Virus record (IMG/VR): IMGVR_UViG_648861009_000005
Reading direction: 5' to 3' (one strand)
DNA length: 49,397 nt
Origin: a virus
Taxonomy: Duplodnaviria; Heunggongvirae; Uroviricota; Caudoviricetes
Part shown: in pieces, positions 19,580 to 49,074 of the stretch
Position numbering within the stretch: the stretch's first letter is position 1
Layout: every line of letters begins with the position of its first letter
Notes under the pieces: model-generated
Told to the model about the DNA's origin: nothing
What the model saw: only the letters and a program-made list of their open reading frames with translations
The model's database searches: none
Translations under genes and position numbers: made by a program

Positions 19580-19886
19580 TACTACGTCATCGTACTGGCC
19601 CGGCATTCCAGGCCATAAAAGACGGTCTGGCAGTGGGACTAAATGCACTGACGCTGACGGATATTACCAAAAATGCAACGTATGGCGTTGAGATAGAAAG
19701 TCTGGTGCTGGAGATAAATGCACCGGCATCATCATAAAAAGTGAGCCAGTCAAATGGAAGGTATCGTTAAACTCACCGGTAGTGTCAGTGGGTCGTCTGA
19801 GACGCCTGCATGAGTTATCAGAGCCATCAGTACTTAACTGGTGGCTTTTTTATTGTTGTCAGCTTCCGGATAACGGGAGACGGGGT

Positions 19887-20102
19887 ATGTACCAGATGGA
19901 AAAAATCACAACAGGTGTGTCATACACCACGTCAGCGGTGGGAACGGGCTACTGGTTCCTGCAGTTGCTGGACAGGGTTTCCCCGTCTCAGTGGGCGGCA
20001 ATAGGCGTGCTGGGGAGTCTGCTGTTTGGGCTGCTGACATATCTGACTAACCTGTATTTCAAAATCAAAGAGGACCGGCGTAAGGCGGCGCGGGGAGAGT
20101 AA
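19887..20102 (+). CDS. S: Class II holin, phage 21 S-like pinholin with dual start
   Basis: 71 aa; [22 protein letters not shown]...[21 protein letters not shown] matches S21; Met1 and Met4 dual-start motif. Confidence 0.85.
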
Positions 20103-20106
20103 AGTG

Positions 20107-20997
20107 ATGAATAAAAAATATGAACTGGTTGTTAAGGGGATAAATAATTACGGGGATAAGGTTACTGTTACTGTGAAGTCGGAAGGTGACGGGCAAGCGT
20201 CGCTGTTGTTGCCAGATGTGGCGATTAGTCTTGACCGTACTGAAGGTGCCACGCTGGAGTTTTACGAAGCTGAGGCGAAAAAGCAGGCGAAGCAGTTTTT
20301 CATGGATGTTGCTGCCGGGTTATGTGAATGGAACGAACCGTTGCCGGAAAAGCGCCCCGTAATTTTAGAGGCGCAGGATGTGTTGATAACCTACAAAGGA
20401 AAGCTACCGGGAAGAATTACTTGTTCTCTGAAGATGCCGCCGTCAACACTGCGGTCAGAAAAAGATGATGTTGAATCACGTATTGAAAAACTGGAGAGCT
20501 ACGTCGTTGAGCTGAATAAGAAATGGTCGATATTGGTGCCTTCTGGCGATGAAAAGCAGTTTGCTGCGTTTGACGATTATTGTCGGAAAGTGATGAGCAG
20601 AAATCTCGCAGAGTGTTTCAGTATTCATAATGATAATTTCAGTGACCCGGAATGGGAGTGTAACCGGCCATCCTTTGTTGTATCCGGTGATGCTGGGAAA
20701 ATAACCATCTCAGAAAATGGGAAAGTAACACCTCCATCGCACCAGCACAGTGAGGAGCTCATTGAATTTGCCATTGATTACCTGAAGAACAATAAAAAGC
20801 AGGGGCTGATGAAGCGCGTTGGCCGTTGCATGGGATATCTTCAGGTAGCCGCTGAGATTGAAGCGCTGGCCAGTGGTGCTGATAAGGATGCAATTGTGCG
20901 GGAGGCTCTTCTTCGTGATTTTAATACTCCACCCTTTAAAAAAGGGCCGGCTTACTGGCTTCATCCGGGGCTGACTTATCTTAAAGTGCGTATTTAG
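20107..20997 (+). CDS. Hypothetical soluble protein (296 aa) inserted between holin and endolysin
   Basis: Clean ORF with no TM or signal peptide and no motif I recognise; lower GC than its neighbours. Confidence 0.5.
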   Translation: MNKKYELVVKGINNYGDKVTVTVKSEGDGQASLLLPDVAISLDRTEGATLEFYEAEAKKQAKQFFMDVAAGLCEWNEPLPEKRPVILEAQDVLITYKGKLPGRITCSLKMPPSTLRSEKDDVESRIEKLESYVVELNKKWSILVPSGDEKQFAAFDDYCRKVMSRNLAECFSIHNDNFSDPEWECNRPSFVVSGDAGKITISENGKVTPPSHQHSEELIEFAIDYLKNNKKQGLMKRVGRCMGYLQVAAEIEALASGADKDAIVREALLRDFNTPPFKKGPAYWLHPGLTYLKVRI

Positions 20998-21033: not shown

Positions 21034-21567
21034 ATGAACACCAAAATCAAATACGGCCTGTCGGCTGCCGTTCTGGCGCTGATTGCCGCTGGTGCGCCTG
21101 CGCCTGACATTCTCGACCAGTTTCTGGATGAAAAGGAAGGCAACCACACCACGGCATACCGTGATGGTGCAGGTATCTGGACCATCTGCCGTGGTGCCAT
21201 CATGGTGGATGGCAAACCTGTCGTTCCGGGCATGAAGTTGTCGAAGGAAAAATGCGACCAGGTTAACGCCATTGAGCGTGATAAAGCGCTGGCGTGGGTG
21301 GAGAAAAACATCAGAGTGCCGCTGACCGAACCCCAGAAAGCGGGGATCGCGTCATTCTGTCCGTACAACATTGGTCCCGGTAAGTGTTTCCCGTCGACGT
21401 TTTACAGACGAATTAATGCTGGTGATCGAAAAGGTGCCTGCGAAGCGATTCGCTGGTGGATTAAGGACGGTGGCAGAGACTGCCGTATTCGTTCAAACAA
21501 CTGTTACGGTCAGGTATCCCGTCGTGACCAGGAGAGCGCGCTGGCGTGCTGGGGTATCGACAGATAA
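21034..21567 (+). CDS. R: SAR endolysin (GH24 lysozyme with signal-anchor-release N-terminus)
   Basis: N-terminal weakly hydrophobic SAR segment GLSAAVLALIAAGA; E..D..T catalytic spacing (EGNHTTAYRDGAGIWTICRG). Confidence 0.85.
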   Translation: MNTKIKYGLSAAVLALIAAGAPAPDILDQFLDEKEGNHTTAYRDGAGIWTICRGAIMVDGKPVVPGMKLSKEKCDQVNAIERDKALAWVEKNIRVPLTEPQKAGIASFCPYNIGPGKCFPSTFYRRINAGDRKGACEAIRWWIKDGGRDCRIRSNNCYGQVSRRDQESALACWGIDR

Positions 21568-21920: not shown

Positions 21921-22052
21921 ATGTCAGACAAACTCATAACGCTGGCGAAGATCCTCTGTGTAATTGTCGGCATTTCATTTTCACTAATGCTGGTTGCTCT
22001 TTTTCTTTCCATGGCCTGGATGATGTTGTCTTCGTCGGGGTTGCTGGGGTGA
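21921..22052 (+). CDS. Small single-pass membrane protein
   Basis: 43 aa; strong GAAGGGAGGA RBS; stop overlaps the Rz start. Confidence 0.4.
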
Positions 22053-22522
22053 ACATAAACCGAATGCTTTCCGCGTTTATCGTTATTCTGCTGGTGGCCT
22101 GTGGTGCGCTGTGGATGGCAACAGACCATTACCGTGATAACGCGATTACCTACAAAGCGCAGCGCGATAACAAAGCCAGTGAACTGAAGCTGGCGAACGC
22201 AACCATTACTGATATGCAGGTGCGCCAGCGCGATGTTGCTGCGCTCGATGCAAAATACTCGAGGGAATTAGCCGATGCGAGAGCTGAAAATGAAACTCTT
22301 CGCGCTGACGTTGCCGCTGGTCGTAAGCGCCTGCGGATCAACGCCACCTGTCCAGGCTCCGTGCGTGAAGCCCCCACCACCTCCGGCGTGGATAATGCAA
22401 CCGGCCCCCAACTGGCAGACACCGTTACACGGGATTATTTCACCCTCAGAGAGCGGCTGATGACGATGCACAAGCAACTGGAAGGGGCACAGGACTATAT
22501 CCGCACTCAGTGCCTGAAATAA
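22049..22522 (+). CDS. Rz: Rz i-spanin
   Basis: [14 protein letters not shown]...[33 protein letters not shown] matches lambda Rz. Confidence 0.85.
22275..22460 (+). CDS. Rz1: Rz1 o-spanin lipoprotein, embedded in Rz in the +1 frame
   Basis: [10 protein letters not shown] lipobox; [26 protein letters not shown] matches lambda Rz1. Confidence 0.8.
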
Positions 22523-22832
22523 GTTTTGTTGATGCGCCGTATCGTCGCTATATTCCCTCATTAACAGAGACCGCAGCCCGACAGGGAGACTCCTCTGCGC
22601 GAGTGTGCGGGGATAATTAAAAACGATGCACACCGGGTTTTTACCGCGTTAATGATTCGCGGGTTTATCCCGGTGCGATGGTGGAAGAAACAGGAAGCTG
22701 TATTACAGAAAGTGCTACTACTGTATCCCGATGCGATGTATGTAATGTGAGTCAGATAATGGCACAGGATGTGGTGATGTGGCAGTCTGGAACACAGGAT
22801 ATATTGTCAGAATAAGACCCGTAGGAATAAAA

Positions 22833-23159
22833 ATGAAAAGACGCCTTTTACTACTTTTTCTGTTATCTGTCCTGGCAGTGGGATGCTCGCAGCAAAAAGC
22901 TGATGAGCCCCGGCAATTAGTGACGGTGTATCCACGATATCCGGAATATGCTGCAGCAAATTATATCAAGGGGCTGGTTGAGGTTAAGTTCGATATTGGT
23001 GCTGATGGGACTGTGACACGGATCGTTTTTCTCCGCTCAGAGCCTCATAATTTGTTTCGTGATGAAGTGGTGAAGGCCATGGCGAAATGGCGATTTGAAA
23101 AGAATCGCCCCTGTCAGGGAGTGAAGAGACAATTTATCTTTACGCCGTCACGTCCTTGA
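22833..23159 (+). CDS. Lipoprotein with TonB C-terminal-like domain
   Basis: Signal peptide with LAVGC lipobox; PRYPEYAAANYIKGLVEVKFDIGADGTVTRIVFLRSEP...AMAKWRFE fits the TonB_C pattern. Confidence 0.55.
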   Translation: MKRRLLLLFLLSVLAVGCSQQKADEPRQLVTVYPRYPEYAAANYIKGLVEVKFDIGADGTVTRIVFLRSEPHNLFRDEVVKAMAKWRFEKNRPCQGVKRQFIFTPSRP

Positions 23160-23905
23160 TGCTTCCAGGTAGAGAGGGGCTGGACGCAGGAGAAAAATGA
23201 AAGAGCCAGCGGTTATATTTTTGTCATGGCTGACGAGGAATGATGGAAGAAGGCGTTGTATGCCACACAACGCCTCACTGTTCATTTCTTCTTTTTCTCT
23301 GGTGGAACCCGATGAATAAGAGTTGCACTGGTTTCCGATGAGATGGCGATATACTCGGGCAAAGTATGCTGGCAGTTTTCCAACTGGTCAAAAATACCTG
23401 CTCTCGTCTGTTGCAATGCCTGCAGCATGCGGCGGCAATGCGCCTTGCTTTTACTAACCATCTTTCCTTCCTCTATCAGTCGCTGCGTGAACTCATCATG
23501 TAATACCAGGTAAATGCGGATGTTATCGGTTTTGGCTACGCAGCATAGTACAAAACGGACAGGTGCATCCCGGGACGGGGGAGGCGTCACATGTCCCTGT
23601 GATGGTTGTTCCGGGTAATGCACTGTGTGGGGCATAAAAATGTCCGATAATTTTACTTTCTACCGCAGTTAGTTGATTCGTTGGTCCTGGTAGCACATTG
23701 GGCGAGGATTTAAATGCCAGGCAACTGAAGGATGATGTTGCAAGGGAGATAGCGAGAATATTTCTGATTTTCATTTGATGATGCCTCTGTGTGAAATGAC
23801 GGTAAACGACGCACTTGTGCCGGCACATAATAGCAAGCACCATAATAGATCAGATTCGATTCTTGCTGTAAGTGATAATTATTCTCGTTTTCGGGTCCTT
23901 TCCGT

Positions 23906-24090
23906 CGATCCAACAGGTTACGGGGCGGCGACCTCGCGGGTTTTCGCTATTTATGAAAATTTTCCGGGAACCATGTCCGGTTTCTCTTCAAGTTAACTAT
24001 ATGAAAAATAAAAAAAGAGGTCTTCTGTGAACCGGACATGCACAAAAAATAGACATGTAAGCCGGACATGACCGGTTTTGTTGTGATTGT
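23906..24090. other. cos site: cosN cohesive-end sequence GGGCGGCGACCT (23923-23934) plus cosB-like terminase-binding repeats
   Basis: CGATCCAACAGGTTACG|GGGCGGCGACCTCGCGGGTTTTCGCTATTTATGAAAATTTTCCGG matches the lambda cos region as recalled; three AACCGGACATG-type repeats (one inverted) and an A/T-rich IHF-like tract follow. Confidence 0.8.
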
Positions 24091-24117: not shown

Positions 24118-24627
24118 GTGGCTACGCAGACTGAAGTTGCCAGGCATTTAAGTCTGACCGATCGCCAGCTTCGCAGATTGCAGAAATTGCCGGGTGCCCC
24201 GATATCGAATAAGCGAGGGCAACTGGATCTGGATGCCTGGCGCGATTTTTACATATCGTATCTGAGAAGAAGTAAAAACGATGTGCCTGATGGCGATAGC
24301 GAAGACGACTATGAGGAGAAATTGCTTATTGCCAGATGGGAACTGACAGCAGAACAGGCTGTTACACAGCAGTTAAAAAATGAGGTGTCAAAAGGAAAAC
24401 TTATTGATACCGGGTTCTGTATTTTTGCCCTCAGCAAGCTGGCAATGGCGTTATCCAGTACGCTTGATTCCATCCCTTTATCCATGCAGCGACAGTTTCC
24501 TGATTTAACACCGCGCCATCTTGACCATCTGAAAACCCTTATTGCGAAGGGGGCAAATCAGTGTGCGCGGGCGGGGGATAAATTACCGGATTTACTCGAT
24601 GAATATATCAGAGCAACAACTGAATAA
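24118..24627 (+). CDS. nu1: Terminase small subunit (Nu1-like)
   Basis: GTG start with GAGGAG RBS; C-terminal LPLSMQRQFPDL..RHLDHLK matches lambda Nu1. Confidence 0.8.
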   Translation: MATQTEVARHLSLTDRQLRRLQKLPGAPISNKRGQLDLDAWRDFYISYLRRSKNDVPDGDSEDDYEEKLLIARWELTAEQAVTQQLKNEVSKGKLIDTGFCIFALSKLAMALSSTLDSIPLSMQRQFPDLTPRHLDHLKTLIAKGANQCARAGDKLPDLLDEYIRATTE

Positions 24628-43989: not shown

Positions 43990-44589
43990 ATGCGTAAAGT
44001 TTGTGCAGCCATTTTGTCCGCAGCCATCTGTCTGTCCGTATCCGGTGCGCCTGCATGGGCGTCTGAACATCAGCCCACACTGAGCGCGGGGTATCTTCAT
44101 GCCCGTACGAACGCTCCCGGCAGCGATAATCTGAACGGGATTAACGTGAAATACCGTTATGAGTTTACGGACGCGCTGGGGCTGATTACGTCCTTCAGTT
44201 ATGCCAATGCTGAGGATGAGCAAAAAACGCACTACAGCGATACCCGCTGGCATGAAGATTCCGTGCGTAACCGCTGGTTCAGCGTGATGGCGGGGCCGTC
44301 TGTACGCGTGAATGAATGGTTCAGCGCGTATGCGATGGTGGGTGTGGCTTACAGCCGTGTGTCGACTTTCTCCGGGGATTATCTCCGCGTAACTGACAAC
44401 AAGGGGAAAACGCACGATGTGCTGACCGGAAGTGATGACGGTCGCCACAGCAACACGTCTCTGGCGTGGGGGGCTGGCGTGCAGTTTAACCCGACCGAAT
44501 CCGTAACCATTGACCTTGCTTATGAAGGTTCCGGTAGTGGCGACTGGCGAACGGATGCATTTATTGTTGGTATCGGATACCGTTTCTGA
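43990..44589 (+). CDS. lom: Outer-membrane protein Lom (Ail/Lom family)
   Basis: Signal peptide; GINVKYRYE, SVMAGP, AYAMVGVA, YEGSGSGDWRTD.FIVG.GY.F match lambda Lom. Confidence 0.9.
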   Translation: MRKVCAAILSAAICLSVSGAPAWASEHQPTLSAGYLHARTNAPGSDNLNGINVKYRYEFTDALGLITSFSYANAEDEQKTHYSDTRWHEDSVRNRWFSVMAGPSVRVNEWFSAYAMVGVAYSRVSTFSGDYLRVTDNKGKTHDVLTGSDDGRHSNTSLAWGAGVQFNPTESVTIDLAYEGSGSGDWRTDAFIVGIGYRF

Positions 44590-48405: not shown

Positions 48406-49074
48406 CTATTTTTTCCCTGAAGCGGAAAACATTACTACAGTACCTTGAACCTTGGTTTTAACATTCTCGAAATGCTCTGAGAGTATATGTGTTAAGCCTT
48501 CTTCGGAATCTTTTGTGTTTGAAAAGATGCCTTTCTGATTGTAAATGCGCATCAGTTTTTGACCGAAGCTATTGTGCACAACTCCATCGCCAAGAATTGT
48601 GGCTCCGTATAGAGTTCCATCGTCAGTTAAGGCCTGCGCCGCATTGCGTATTACACAGCTTTTTGTAGATATATTTCCAGGCAGGCAGTGAAGAAGGTAA
48701 AACATGGAAATGGAATCAAATTGACCATGTAACGCCGCGGGATAAGGTTCAAAAACATCATGGCTAATTTTATGTTTAATTTTTGATTCCCCAGCCCTTG
48801 TAGATGCCGCGTTCAGGCTAGCTTCGTTCAAATCCATTAAAGATATCAGACTACTCTCAGGTACGTGAGTAAGGTAAAACCCAGTTCCAACACCAATATC
48901 CAGATGGTTGTTACCTACATGTTCCAGAAAGTGTGGAAGAAGGTGTTCCTTTGTAGGACATCCCCATGCAAGCCGATTTGATACTCCCAAAACCCACCAG
49001 TCATAAAGCTTTAGGGTAAGTGGTGTGTAAATTTTAGCCCCATCATCTGTGTTTTTTTTCATTGATTTCACCAT
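48406..49074 (-). CDS. Class I SAM-dependent methyltransferase (substrate unknown)
   Basis: LDIGVGTG glycine-rich motif I; low-GC gene on the opposite strand; the ATG at 49062 with GGTGA RBS may be the true start. Confidence 0.6.
   Translation of the reverse strand: MVKSMKKNTDDGAKIYTPLTLKLYDWWVLGVSNRLAWGCPTKEHLLPHFLEHVGNNHLDIGVGTGFYLTHVPESSLISLMDLNEASLNAASTRAGESKIKHKISHDVFEPYPAALHGQFDSISMFYLLHCLPGNISTKSCVIRNAAQALTDDGTLYGATILGDGVVHNSFGQKLMRIYNQKGIFSNTKDSEEGLTHILSEHFENVKTKVQGTVVMFSASGKK

What the first reader, a model, noticed from the sequence alone, without database searches (positions are those of the whole stretch)
22833..23159. Lipoprotein with a TonB C-terminal-like domain at the bor position
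Downstream of Rz/Rz1, where lambda carries the bor moron, there is a gene for a 108-aa lipoprotein (lipobox LAVGC) whose mature part fits the TonB_C pattern (PRYPEYA...G.VEVKFDIGADGTV...WRFE). A periplasm-exposed TonB-C mimic could compete with host TonB for TonB-box receptors such as FhuA or BtuB, and so exclude TonB-dependent phages or colicins. That would be a mechanism distinct from Cor/Llp-type receptor blocking.
Basis: partly seen in the sequence, partly recalled or inferred. Interest (0 to 1): 0.6.

Follow-up and report, generated by a model that had tools for sequence, protein, structure and literature searches.

The report
Prophage lipoprotein made of TonB's C-terminal domain
A lambdoid prophage gene, also in phage 21 and about 30% of complete E. 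coli genomes, encodes a predicted outer-membrane lipoprotein that is just the receptor-binding end of TonB without its motor; it may jam TonB-dependent entry of rival phages and colicins, but no one has tested this.

Summary
Window 22833-23159 (+) encodes a 108-aa protein with a signal peptide and lipobox (LAVG|C18, Ser at +2). After a 7-residue linker comes a complete TonB C-terminal domain:
- Pfam TonB_C E=7e-13.
- Gapless 38% identity to E. coli TonB 151-235.
- AF2 model pLDDT 88, TM 0.91 and rmsd 1.0-1.5 Å to TonB CTD, including the BtuB- and FhuA-bound forms.

It has no TonB membrane anchor and no Pro-rich rod.

The gene is real and constrained: dN/dS is 0.12 between two phage clades. It is already annotated, as "TonB C-terminal domain protein" in phage 21 and "TonB family protein" in 1617 of 5426 complete E. 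coli genomes. I found no functional study.

It does not replace bor. In 46 of 80 related phage loci bor and this gene sit side by side; this window has simply lost bor. The gene always lies between the lysis cassette and the terminase genes, co-oriented with the late operon, and I found no promoter of its own.

The TonB-decoy idea is plausible, because periplasmic TonB fragments are dominant-negative, but it is unproven. Arguments against are the likely iron-uptake cost and the non-phage chromosomal homologues in Klebsiella, Raoultella, Serratia and Erwinia.

The parts
22823..22826 (+). Shine-Dalgarno AGGA, 6 nt upstream of the ATG
   Evidence: Sequence read; phage 21 annotates an RBS at the equivalent position.
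22833..23159 (+). CDS for the 108-aa TonB_C lipoprotein (stop codon included)
   Evidence: ORF. 100% identical to phage 21 CPT_21_73 and UTI89 WP_000830178.1. dN/dS 0.12 against the 72% clade.
22833..22886 (+). Lipoprotein signal peptide (aa 1-17) and lipobox Cys18 (LAVG|C); Ser19 at +2
   Evidence: Pattern match. Lipobox Cys invariant in the 13 short homologues aligned in A3; no Asp at +2 in the lipobox-bearing members scored.
22887..22907 (+). Short linker (aa 19-25, SQQKADE) between the lipidated Cys and the folded domain
   Evidence: P26 aligns with TonB P153; AF2 pLDDT rises above 85 from about residue 26.
22908..23144 (+). TonB C-terminal domain (aa 26-104, equivalent to E. coli TonB 153-231), including the beta3 edge strand (aa 94-103)
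   Evidence: Pfam and NCBIfam, PDB phmmer, AF2 plus Foldseek.
22533..23922 (+). 1.39-kb block 98.7% identical to the right end of phage 21 up to cos; carries the gene
   Evidence: blastn; the phage 21 record ends (cos) at the base equivalent to window 23922.
22533..22640 (-). Relic of the bor upstream/promoter region (bor itself absent)
   Evidence: Conserved in 432 phage records. HK630 annotates a minus-strand promoter under the match, upstream of bor. No bor in the window.
22049..22522 (+). Rz i-spanin, with Rz1 o-spanin embedded at 22275-22460 (context: end of the lysis cassette)
   Evidence: ORFs; 84% nt identity to phage 21 Rz.
24118..24627 (+). Nu1 small terminase (context: start of the head genes, just past cos)
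   Evidence: Pfam Phage_Nu1 E=1e-18.

Best explanation
The gene makes an outer-membrane lipoprotein that consists only of the Ton-box-binding C-terminal domain of TonB. A roughly 7-residue linker tethers the domain to the inner leaflet of the outer membrane. It lacks the membrane anchor and the Pro-rich rod that couple real TonB to ExbB/ExbD.

The most likely mechanism is a motor-less decoy. Its exposed beta3 edge strand pairs, by beta-augmentation, with Ton boxes of ligand-loaded TonB-dependent transporters (FhuA, BtuB, FepA, Cir and others). It may also pair with the Ton boxes of incoming TonB-dependent colicins. Either way it would compete with host TonB and lower TonB-dependent uptake. The expected benefit is protection of the infected or lysogenic cell from TonB-dependent rivals: T1/phi80-type and FhuA-using lambdoid phages, and group B colicins and microcins.

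Shown here: the architecture, the fold, purifying selection, the conserved genomic position, and the prevalence.

Inferred: outer-membrane localisation (from the +2 rule), Ton-box binding, competition with TonB, and the biological pay-off. The timing of expression is also inferred: certainly possible from the Q-antiterminated late transcript, but unknown in lysogens.
For: - Complete TonB CTD by profile and fold, superposing on TonB as bound to BtuB (2gsk_B, rmsd 1.0) and FhuA (2grx_C, rmsd 0.9).
- The gapless alignment keeps Y163-P164 and aromatic residues at all six conserved aromatic positions (Y163, F180, F202, W213, F230 identical; Y215 is Phe here), G186, and a beta3 strand (FIF for ILF). 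The significance of these residues is from my own knowledge of TonB genetics.
- Ton-box recognition is mainly backbone beta-augmentation (PMC6699858), so it tolerates side-chain divergence. In the FhuA and BtuB complexes the TonB CTD lies against the barrel rim, which is compatible with a short outer-membrane tether.
- A lipobox with a non-Asp +2 residue recurs among the short homologues that have a lipobox.
- Precedent: periplasmic TonB 33-239, 103-239 and 122-239 abolish TonB activity (bioRxiv 10.1101/2020.01.05.895219).
- dN/dS 0.12. Present in 1617 of 5426 complete E. coli genomes. Same slot in three divergent versions at 100%, 72% and 41% identity.
Against: - No experiment exists, and ten literature searches found no study.
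- No sigma-70-like promoter lies upstream on the + strand. The only element conserved between clades in the divergent upstream stretch is a lone GATAAT hexamer with no -35. Expression in lysogens is therefore unproven.
- A general TonB block would starve the host of iron and B12, yet the gene sits in 30% of E. coli genomes, including UTI89 and ATCC 25922.
- TonB R158, Q160 and R166, implicated in Ton-box or receptor contacts (my recollection of the 2006 complex papers and suppressor genetics), are T31, Y33 and Y39 here.
- Homologues at 37-49% identity in Klebsiella, Raoultella, Serratia and Erwinia are not in phage contexts, so the family's function need not be anti-phage.
- PADLOC has no match.
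Confidence: 0.4

Rival explanations
1. The TonB_C fold has been repurposed as an envelope or virulence lipoprotein that does not target Ton boxes. It might bind peptidoglycan, Lpp or OmpA, or act in serum or host resistance like its neighbours Bor/Iss and Lom.
For: - It shares the variable region with bor/iss in more than half of the loci.
- Chromosomal homologues sit among envelope and stress genes, such as a glycine-zipper lipoprotein and a CsbD/DUF883 protein, not in phages.
- TonB cross-links to Lpp in vivo (figure legend quoted).
- The receptor-contact side chains R158, Q160 and R166 are not kept.
Against: - The parts of the domain kept best are those shared with real TonB, including the beta3 strand.
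- No partner gene is conserved across the chromosomal contexts.
- The gene is co-oriented with the late operon, unlike bor, which has its own opposite-strand promoter.
Confidence: 0.2
2. It is a late lytic-cycle function rather than a lysogenic-conversion gene. Made with the lysis proteins from pR', it would shut down TonB-dependent traffic or uncouple TonB-receptor bridges in the dying cell. Possible benefits are blocking late superinfection or colicin killing before burst, or easing envelope disruption.
For: - It always lies directly after the lysis cassette, co-oriented, in the E. coli clades and in Klebsiella phage ST13-OXA48phi12.4.
- No promoter of its own and no intervening strong terminator were found.
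- PHROG 1267, which is essentially this family, is filed under lysis.
Against: - The Rz-to-cos slot is a generic site for accessory genes in lambdoid phages (bor is there too).
- Rz and Rz1 are already complete.
- Non-phage chromosomal homologues have no lysis neighbours.
- The PHROG label looks like annotation by position, not evidence.
Confidence: 0.2
3. It is a functionless captured fragment of tonB ('partial tonB-like protein'), carried along passively.
For: Older annotations call it 'partial' or 'TonB fragment'.
Against: - dN/dS is 0.12 with dS about 1.5 between clades.
- It has gained a signal peptide and lipobox, conserved across the short lipoprotein homologues aligned in A3.
- It is only 38% identical to E. 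coli TonB and groups with a distinct short-lipoprotein subfamily.
- 1612 of the 1617 carrier genomes hold at least 80% of the gene.
Confidence: 0.03

Closest known systems
E. coli TonB C-terminal domain (residues ~150-239; PDB 1u07, 2gsk, 2grx)
   Same: Same fold (TM 0.91, rmsd 1.0-1.5 Å). 38% identity without gaps. YP motif, conserved aromatic positions, G186 and the beta3 edge strand are kept.
   Different: No N-terminal transmembrane anchor and no Pro-rich spacer, so it cannot couple to ExbB/ExbD. It is lipid-anchored instead, and predicted at the outer membrane rather than the inner. It ends four residues earlier. R158, Q160 and R166 are replaced.
Engineered periplasmic TonB fragments (33-239, 103-239, 122-239) that are dominant-negative
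   Same: A TonB periplasmic domain delivered without its energy-coupling anchor; such fragments abolish ferrichrome transport. This is the nearest functional analogue.
   Different: Those fragments are soluble, longer, over-expressed and artificial, and may act on ExbD. This protein is a natural, minimal (equivalent to 151-235), membrane-tethered version whose activity is untested.
T5 Llp and phi80/N15 Cor superinfection-exclusion proteins
   Same: Small phage-encoded envelope proteins proposed or shown to disable a TonB-dependent transporter (FhuA) so that rival phages cannot enter (Cor: PMC11436027; Llp: my own knowledge).
   Different: No sequence relationship: TonB_C was the only Pfam family found. 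Llp and Cor are specific to FhuA, whereas a Ton-box decoy would be generic for TonB-dependent transporters and would act on energisation rather than on the receptor surface.
Orphan short TonB_C lipoproteins of Enterobacterales chromosomes (Klebsiella, Raoultella, Serratia, Erwinia)
   Same: Same length (~107-133 aa), a lipobox with a non-Asp +2 residue, 37-49% identity, and they group with the phage proteins apart from true TonBs.
   Different: They lie in non-phage contexts that vary between genera, and they are also uncharacterised.
Bor/Iss lipoprotein
   Same: An outer-membrane lipoprotein accessory gene in the same Rz-to-cos region of lambdoid phages.
   Different: No homology. Bor is on the opposite strand with its own promoter, and the two often occur together.

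Membership tests
TonB_C domain (Pfam PF03544 / TIGR01352) | Profile score above the curated threshold | tested here: met
   49.2 bits against 24.6; 47.4 against 27.1.
TonB_C domain (Pfam PF03544 / TIGR01352) | TonB CTD fold (three-stranded sheet packed on helices) | tested here: met
   AF2 pLDDT 88. Foldseek top 11 hits are all TonB or FusB CTDs, TM 0.91, rmsd 1.0-1.5 Å.
TonB_C domain (Pfam PF03544 / TIGR01352) | Conserved YP motif, aromatic positions and the beta3 strand used for Ton-box pairing | tested here: met
   Y36-P37, F53, G59, F75, W86, F88 and F103 align with Y163-P164, F180, G186, F202, W213, Y215 and F230. Strand 94-103 is predicted.
TonB_C domain (Pfam PF03544 / TIGR01352) | Actual binding of a Ton box | not testable with these tools
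Bona fide TonB energy transducer (NCBIfam equivalogs NF008080-84) | Equivalog score cut-off | tested here: not met
   Best 69 bits against cut-offs of 265-448; only the C-terminal ~85 profile positions match.
Bona fide TonB energy transducer (NCBIfam equivalogs NF008080-84) | Uncleaved N-terminal transmembrane anchor that couples to ExbB/ExbD, and a Pro-rich periplasmic spacer | tested here: not met
   The N-terminus is a lipoprotein signal peptide. Only 7 residues separate Cys18 from the domain.
Bacterial outer-membrane lipoprotein | Lipobox with invariant Cys after a basic n-region and hydrophobic core | tested here: met
   MKRR-L5..V16-LAVG|C18. Cys invariant across the 13 short homologues aligned in A3.
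Bacterial outer-membrane lipoprotein | No Lol-avoidance signal (no Asp at +2), so sorted to the outer membrane | tested here: met
   Ser19 here; S, T or A at +2 in the other lipobox-bearing members where the pattern found the true lipobox. The rule itself is established knowledge; localisation was not measured.
Bacterial outer-membrane lipoprotein | Acylation and outer-membrane fractionation | not testable with these tools
   Requires globomycin or palmitate labelling and membrane fractionation.
Spanins (PHROG 1267 is labelled 'Rz-like spanin') | o-spanin: short Pro-rich lipoprotein without a globular domain, with its gene embedded in or abutting the i-spanin gene; u-spanin: lipoprotein with a C-terminal transmembrane segment | tested here: not met
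   A typical Rz1 is already embedded in Rz at 22275-22460. This gene lies 310 bp downstream, folds as a globular TonB_C and has no C-terminal hydrophobic segment. The PHROG label appears to be positional.
Llp / Cor receptor-blocking exclusion proteins | Sequence homology to Llp or Cor | tested here: not met
   The Pfam scan at E<=1 returned only TonB_C.
Llp / Cor receptor-blocking exclusion proteins | Confers resistance to phages that use a TonB-dependent receptor | not testable with these tools
   Needs plating assays.
Known anti-phage defence systems (PADLOC-DB) | Match to any defence-protein model | tested here: not met
   0 families at E<=1.
Bor/Iss | Sequence homology | tested here: not met
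   tblastn of phage 21 Bor against the window gave no hit better than E=2.4.

The most novel reading that the evidence does not exclude
A natural, phage-borne 'TonB decoy'. The motor-less TonB C-terminal domain, tethered to the inner face of the outer membrane, captures exposed Ton boxes of many transporters and of incoming colicins. One 108-aa protein would thereby give broad exclusion of TonB-dependent phages, colicins and microcins. This would be a new exclusion mechanism that targets energy coupling rather than a receptor surface. It would already be present in about 30% of sequenced E. coli, including phage 21, UTI89 and O157 Stx1 prophages, with chromosomal relatives in other Enterobacterales.
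Probability: 0.3. Interest if true: 0.75.

Novelty: new variant of a known kind. Interest (0 to 1): 0.55.

Why it matters
If the decoy mechanism holds, three things follow.
- It would add a generic, energy-coupling-level mode of superinfection and bacteriocin exclusion to the receptor-specific Llp and Cor examples.
- It could explain strain-to-strain differences in sensitivity to TonB-dependent phages, colicins, microcins and siderophore-conjugated antibiotics in a large share of E. coli isolates.
- It would provide a minimal natural inhibitor of TonB-receptor coupling, which is being pursued as an antibacterial target.

It would also raise a trade-off question: how a host tolerates a TonB inhibitor while still depending on siderophores.

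If the mechanism is wrong, the protein is still an uncharacterised, strongly conserved envelope protein of classic phage 21, and a cheap genetic target.

Tried and rejected
- **Fur regulation, as for host tonB.** There is no Fur box within 3 mismatches anywhere in the window. Upstream of the gene the best match is 11/19. The window's best match, 15/19 at 23874-23892, abuts cosQ in AT-rich DNA about 700 bp downstream, and I treat it as probably chance.
- **Own promoter or terminator.** No + strand sigma-70-like site lies upstream and no terminator lies just downstream. Aligning the two clades' upstream regions showed that the well-conserved part is a relic of the bor promoter region, not a promoter for this gene.
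- **Structured RNA in the conserved upstream block.** Rfam gave nothing at E<=1.
- **First AF2 run.** With 7 near-identical sequences the model was poor (pLDDT 55). Rerunning with 26 diverse homologues gave pLDDT 88.
- **Link to the carrier phage's own receptor.** The J C-terminus of this phage is 52% identical to lambda J and differs from that of other carriers (65% to PhiR47_2). No coupling between J type and this gene is evident.
- **Phage context for distant homologues.** tblastn of lysis and terminase proteins against the Klebsiella, Raoultella, Serratia and Erwinia loci found none. Their neighbours are chromosomal genes.
- **Upstream 45-aa ORF (22678-22815, annotated in phage 21).** Indels of 17 and 4 nt in the other clade break its frame, so it is probably not a gene.
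- **Viral structure library (BFVD).** No TonB_C-like match at E<=0.001.
- **Literature.** Ten searches found no functional study. I could not retrieve the original 2001 paper on periplasmic TonB fragments and cite it only through a later preprint.
- **First genome scan.** The 13-sequence alignment was too divergent to give search patterns; a 6-sequence alignment worked.

Full report
**1. The observation**

The ORF is exactly as described: ATG at 22833, stop at 23157-23159, 108 aa. An AGGA Shine-Dalgarno lies at 22823-22826. The product begins MKRRLLLLFLLSVLAVG|CSQQKADEP. That is a basic n-region, a 12-residue hydrophobic core, and a lipobox fitting the standard pattern, with Cys18 followed by Ser. 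Rz (22049-22522) with an embedded, typical Rz1 lipoprotein (22275-22460) lies immediately upstream. The Nu1 small terminase (24118-24627, Pfam Phage_Nu1 E=1e-18) lies downstream.

**2. Is it a TonB C-terminal domain?**

Yes, by every test available.
- Pfam TonB_C scores 49.2 bits against a 24.6-bit cut-off (E=7.3e-13, residues 33-99).
- NCBIfam TIGR01352 tonB_Cterm scores 47.4 bits against 27.1. The full-length TonB equivalog models match only through their last ~85 positions and fall far below their cut-offs (69 bits against 265-448).
- Against PDB sequences the best hits are E. coli TonB CTD chains (1u07 E=1.4e-14, 2gsk_B, 2grx_C). The alignment is gapless, with protein residue i aligned to TonB residue i+127. 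Identity to TonB 151-235 is 32/85.
- A first AlphaFold run on seven near-identical sequences was poor (pLDDT 55). With 26 diverse homologues it reached pLDDT 88, above 95 across residues 30-100.
- Foldseek against the PDB returned only TonB-family CTDs at the top. These were 1u07 (TM 0.91, rmsd 1.5 Å), TonB bound to BtuB (2gsk_B, rmsd 1.0) and TonB bound to FhuA (2grx_C, rmsd 0.9). TolA domain III followed far behind.

The alignment keeps the YP motif (Y36-P37 for Y163-P164) and G186. It also keeps the aromatic positions: F53, F75, W86, F88 and F103 for F180, F202, W213, Y215 and F230. The beta3 strand is retained (residues 94-103 in the model). TonB R158, Q160 and R166 are T31, Y33 and Y39. 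The functional meaning of these TonB residues is from my own knowledge of the literature and was not tested here.

**3. What it is not**

It is not a TonB. The N-terminus is a cleavable lipoprotein signal, not the ExbB/ExbD-coupling transmembrane anchor. Only seven residues (SQQKADE) separate the lipidated Cys from P26, which aligns with TonB P153, so there is no Pro-rich rod.

It is not a spanin, although PHROG 1267 is labelled 'Rz-like spanin' and matches it end to end (E=5e-43). Rz and Rz1 are already complete, the gene sits 310 bp further on, and the protein is globular with no C-terminal membrane segment.

It has no similarity to Bor, no hit in PADLOC, and no other Pfam family.

**4. Is it a real, selected gene?**

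Two clades exist in E. coli phages. The window allele is 100% identical in phage 21, ev017, Perceval and three PhiR phages. A 72%-identical allele occurs in Stx1a phages, JLK-2012 and Lys8385Vzw.

Between the clades dN=0.18 and dS=1.46, so dN/dS is 0.12. The signal peptide, the lipobox Cys and most of the domain are invariant between them.

The gene occurs in 1617 of 5426 complete E. coli genomes. Of these, 1202 are at 99% nucleotide identity or higher, including UTI89 and ATCC 25922, and 392 are at 60-80%. All but one of the 1787 places found are on chromosomes. RefSeq calls it 'TonB family protein' (WP_000830178.1, WP_000828070.1). The phage 21 record calls it 'TonB C-terminal domain protein'. 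Older records say 'partial tonB-like membrane protein encoded within prophage CP-933N'. The domain assignment itself is therefore already in the databases.

**5. Genomic setting**

Window 22533-23922 is 98.7% identical to the right end of phage 21 up to cos.

In phage 21, UTI89 and PhiR47_2 the order is Rz, then bor/iss on the minus strand, then the TonB_C gene, then cos and Nu1. In the window bor is absent, and the homology starts 11 bp after the Rz stop. The first ~110 bp of the block (22533-22640) are conserved in 432 phage records. They correspond to the region where HK630 annotates the leftward promoter upstream of bor. So the window keeps a relic of the bor promoter region but has lost bor.

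Among 80 IMG/VR loci, 46 have Rz-bor-TonB_C and about 31 have Rz-TonB_C. In every locus with flanks the gene is co-oriented with the lysis and terminase genes.

The 72% clade sits between Rz and an HNH/terminase module. A 41%-identical gene in Klebsiella phage ST13-OXA48phi12.4 also directly follows the lysis cassette.

'At the bor position' is therefore true only in the loose sense of the same variable slot. The two genes are independent and often coexist.

**6. Expression**

No sigma-70-like promoter was found on the + strand upstream. No terminator-like site lies between the lysis genes and this gene or just after it. There is no credible Fur box upstream.

In the stretch upstream that diverges between clades, the only conserved promoter-like element is a GATAAT hexamer (22755-22760) without a matching -35.

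The sequence therefore supports transcription as part of the Q-antiterminated late transcript. That inference rests on lambdoid operon organisation. Whether the gene is expressed in lysogens is unknown, and that matters for any exclusion role in a lysogen.

**7. Wider family**

An exhaustive HMMER search of 1.84 billion representatives gave 2795 hits at E<=1e-3, mostly ordinary or multi-domain TonB_C proteins. Among them was a set of ~105-130-aa proteins at 35-46% identity, many with lipoboxes.

A genome scan found such genes at 37-49% identity in Klebsiella, Raoultella, Serratia and Erwinia. None has lysis or terminase genes nearby. Their neighbours are:
- lacZ/lacI, a glycine-zipper lipoprotein and an alpha/beta hydrolase in Klebsiella and Raoultella;
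- ycgN and dsbB in Serratia;
- arabinose genes in Erwinia.

In a simple identity clustering, the phage proteins group with these short lipoproteins and apart from enterobacterial TonB CTDs. None of the members scored with a lipobox has Asp at +2. By the established Lol-avoidance rule this predicts outer-membrane sorting.

BFVD, the viral structure library, has no significant match to the model.

**8. Mechanism**

TonB CTD recognises transporters chiefly by parallel beta-augmentation between its last long strand and the Ton box, through backbone hydrogen bonds. In the FhuA and BtuB complexes the domain sits against the barrel. Isolated CTD can bind transporters tightly in vitro (PMC6699858).

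TonB periplasmic fragments exported without their anchor (33-239, 103-239, 122-239) abolish TonB-dependent transport. The original authors attributed this to competition at the transporters. A later preprint reproduced the inhibition and showed that the fragment also blocks the PMF-dependent ExbD-TonB contact (10.1101/2020.01.05.895219).

The phage protein is in effect a natural minimal version of such a fragment. It is placed by its lipid anchor and 7-residue linker where Ton boxes emerge, and away from ExbD.

My best explanation, at confidence about 0.4, is a motor-less Ton-box decoy that lowers TonB-dependent entry of rival phages and group B colicins or microcins. The ecological rationale is that many wild lambdoid phages are FhuA-dependent; that point is from my own knowledge.

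The steps from 'has the fold' to 'binds Ton boxes', 'competes with TonB' and 'excludes phages or colicins' are all inferred.

**9. Evidence against, and rivals**

A broad TonB block should be costly in iron-limited niches, yet the gene is common, including in uropathogens. That fits either weak or conditional expression, late-only expression, or a different target.

The non-phage chromosomal homologues show that the family is not intrinsically an anti-phage device.

The rivals are:
- a repurposed envelope or virulence lipoprotein that binds peptidoglycan, Lpp or OmpA, about 0.2;
- a late lytic-cycle function tied to the lysis cassette, about 0.2;
- a dead tonB fragment, about 0.03, effectively excluded by dN/dS and the acquired lipoprotein signal.

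**10. Novelty and verdict**

The gene and its domain are already annotated, so the bare observation is not new. Ten searches of the held library found no functional work. The only mention found was a 'putative TonB-like protein' in a 2011 comparative-genomics paper (PMC3155842).

The architecture is a lipid-anchored, CTD-only TonB paralogue in a conserved late-operon slot of lambdoid phages. I rate it a new variant of a known kind.

The decoy hypothesis is specific and cheap to test, and it concerns a gene of classic phage 21 that is present in roughly 30% of E. coli genomes. Interest: 0.55.

Noticed in passing
window 22523-22640: bor is missing from this phage, but about 110 bp of the region that lies upstream of bor in lambda-like phages (HK630 annotates a minus-strand promoter there) remain, starting 11 bp after the Rz stop. 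The segment is conserved in 432 phage records.
   Followed up: yes
window 23874-23892 (- strand): The best Fur-box-like match in the whole 49-kb window (15/19 to GATAATGATAATCATTATC) lies next to cosQ/cos (about 23893-23922), roughly 700 bp downstream of the TonB_C gene. It is probably chance in AT-rich cos DNA, but it sits oddly close to a TonB-related gene.
   Followed up: partly
PHROG phrog_1267 (matched by window 22833-23156): This PHROG is labelled 'Rz-like spanin' in the lysis category, yet it matches the TonB_C lipoprotein end to end (E=5e-43). The label looks like a positional or lipoprotein-based misannotation that will spread to phage genomes.
   Followed up: partly
L008-L012, L014, L015 (Klebsiella, Raoultella, Erwinia, Serratia chromosomes): Uncharacterised ~107-133-aa TonB_C-only lipoproteins (37-49% identity) sit in non-phage chromosomal contexts that differ between genera. 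In Klebsiella and Raoultella they are next to a glycine-zipper lipoprotein; in one Klebsiella locus (L010) they are next to a DUF1440 membrane protein, a family also present in the Klebsiella phage that carries a homologue.
   Followed up: partly
L007 (NZ_SJEX01000172.1, 'Modestobacter excelsi', 418-bp contig): A 418-bp contig in an actinobacterial assembly encodes residues 1-67 of this E. coli prophage protein at 100% identity. This is almost certainly contamination of that assembly.
   Followed up: no
window 20104-20997 (+): A 297-aa DUF1327 protein (Pfam E=1e-40) is inserted between the holin-like gene (about 19782-20102) and the signal-anchored endolysin (21034-21567). O157 prophages have a YdfR-family gene in the same slot.
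   Followed up: no
window 23282-23635 (- strand): A 117-aa minus-strand ORF between the TonB_C gene and cos is annotated as a hypothetical protein in PhiR47_2, whereas phage 21 annotates small + strand ORFs there. It has no Pfam hit. The 72% clade has a YlcI/YnfO-family gene on the minus strand at the same relative position.
   Followed up: no
window 22678-22815 (+): The 45-aa ORF annotated in phage 21 (CPT_21_72) just upstream of the TonB_C gene is broken by 17-nt and 4-nt indels in the other clade. It is probably not coding.
   Followed up: partly
window 43990-44589 (+) and 48406-49074 (-): Other accessory genes in the same prophage are a Lom/Ail outer-membrane protein (Pfam E=3e-125) after J, and a minus-strand SAM methyltransferase after the tail-fibre assembly gene.
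   Followed up: no
model m6766e304a36f against BFVD: The viral predicted-structure library has no significant match to this TonB_C model (best E=0.12), so the fold looks essentially unrepresented among catalogued viral proteins.
   Followed up: no
P0036, P0043, P0047 and others: Many of the better-scoring distant hits are 350-900-aa proteins with 3-5 tandem TonB_C-like stretches. This multi-domain architecture was not examined further.
   Followed up: no
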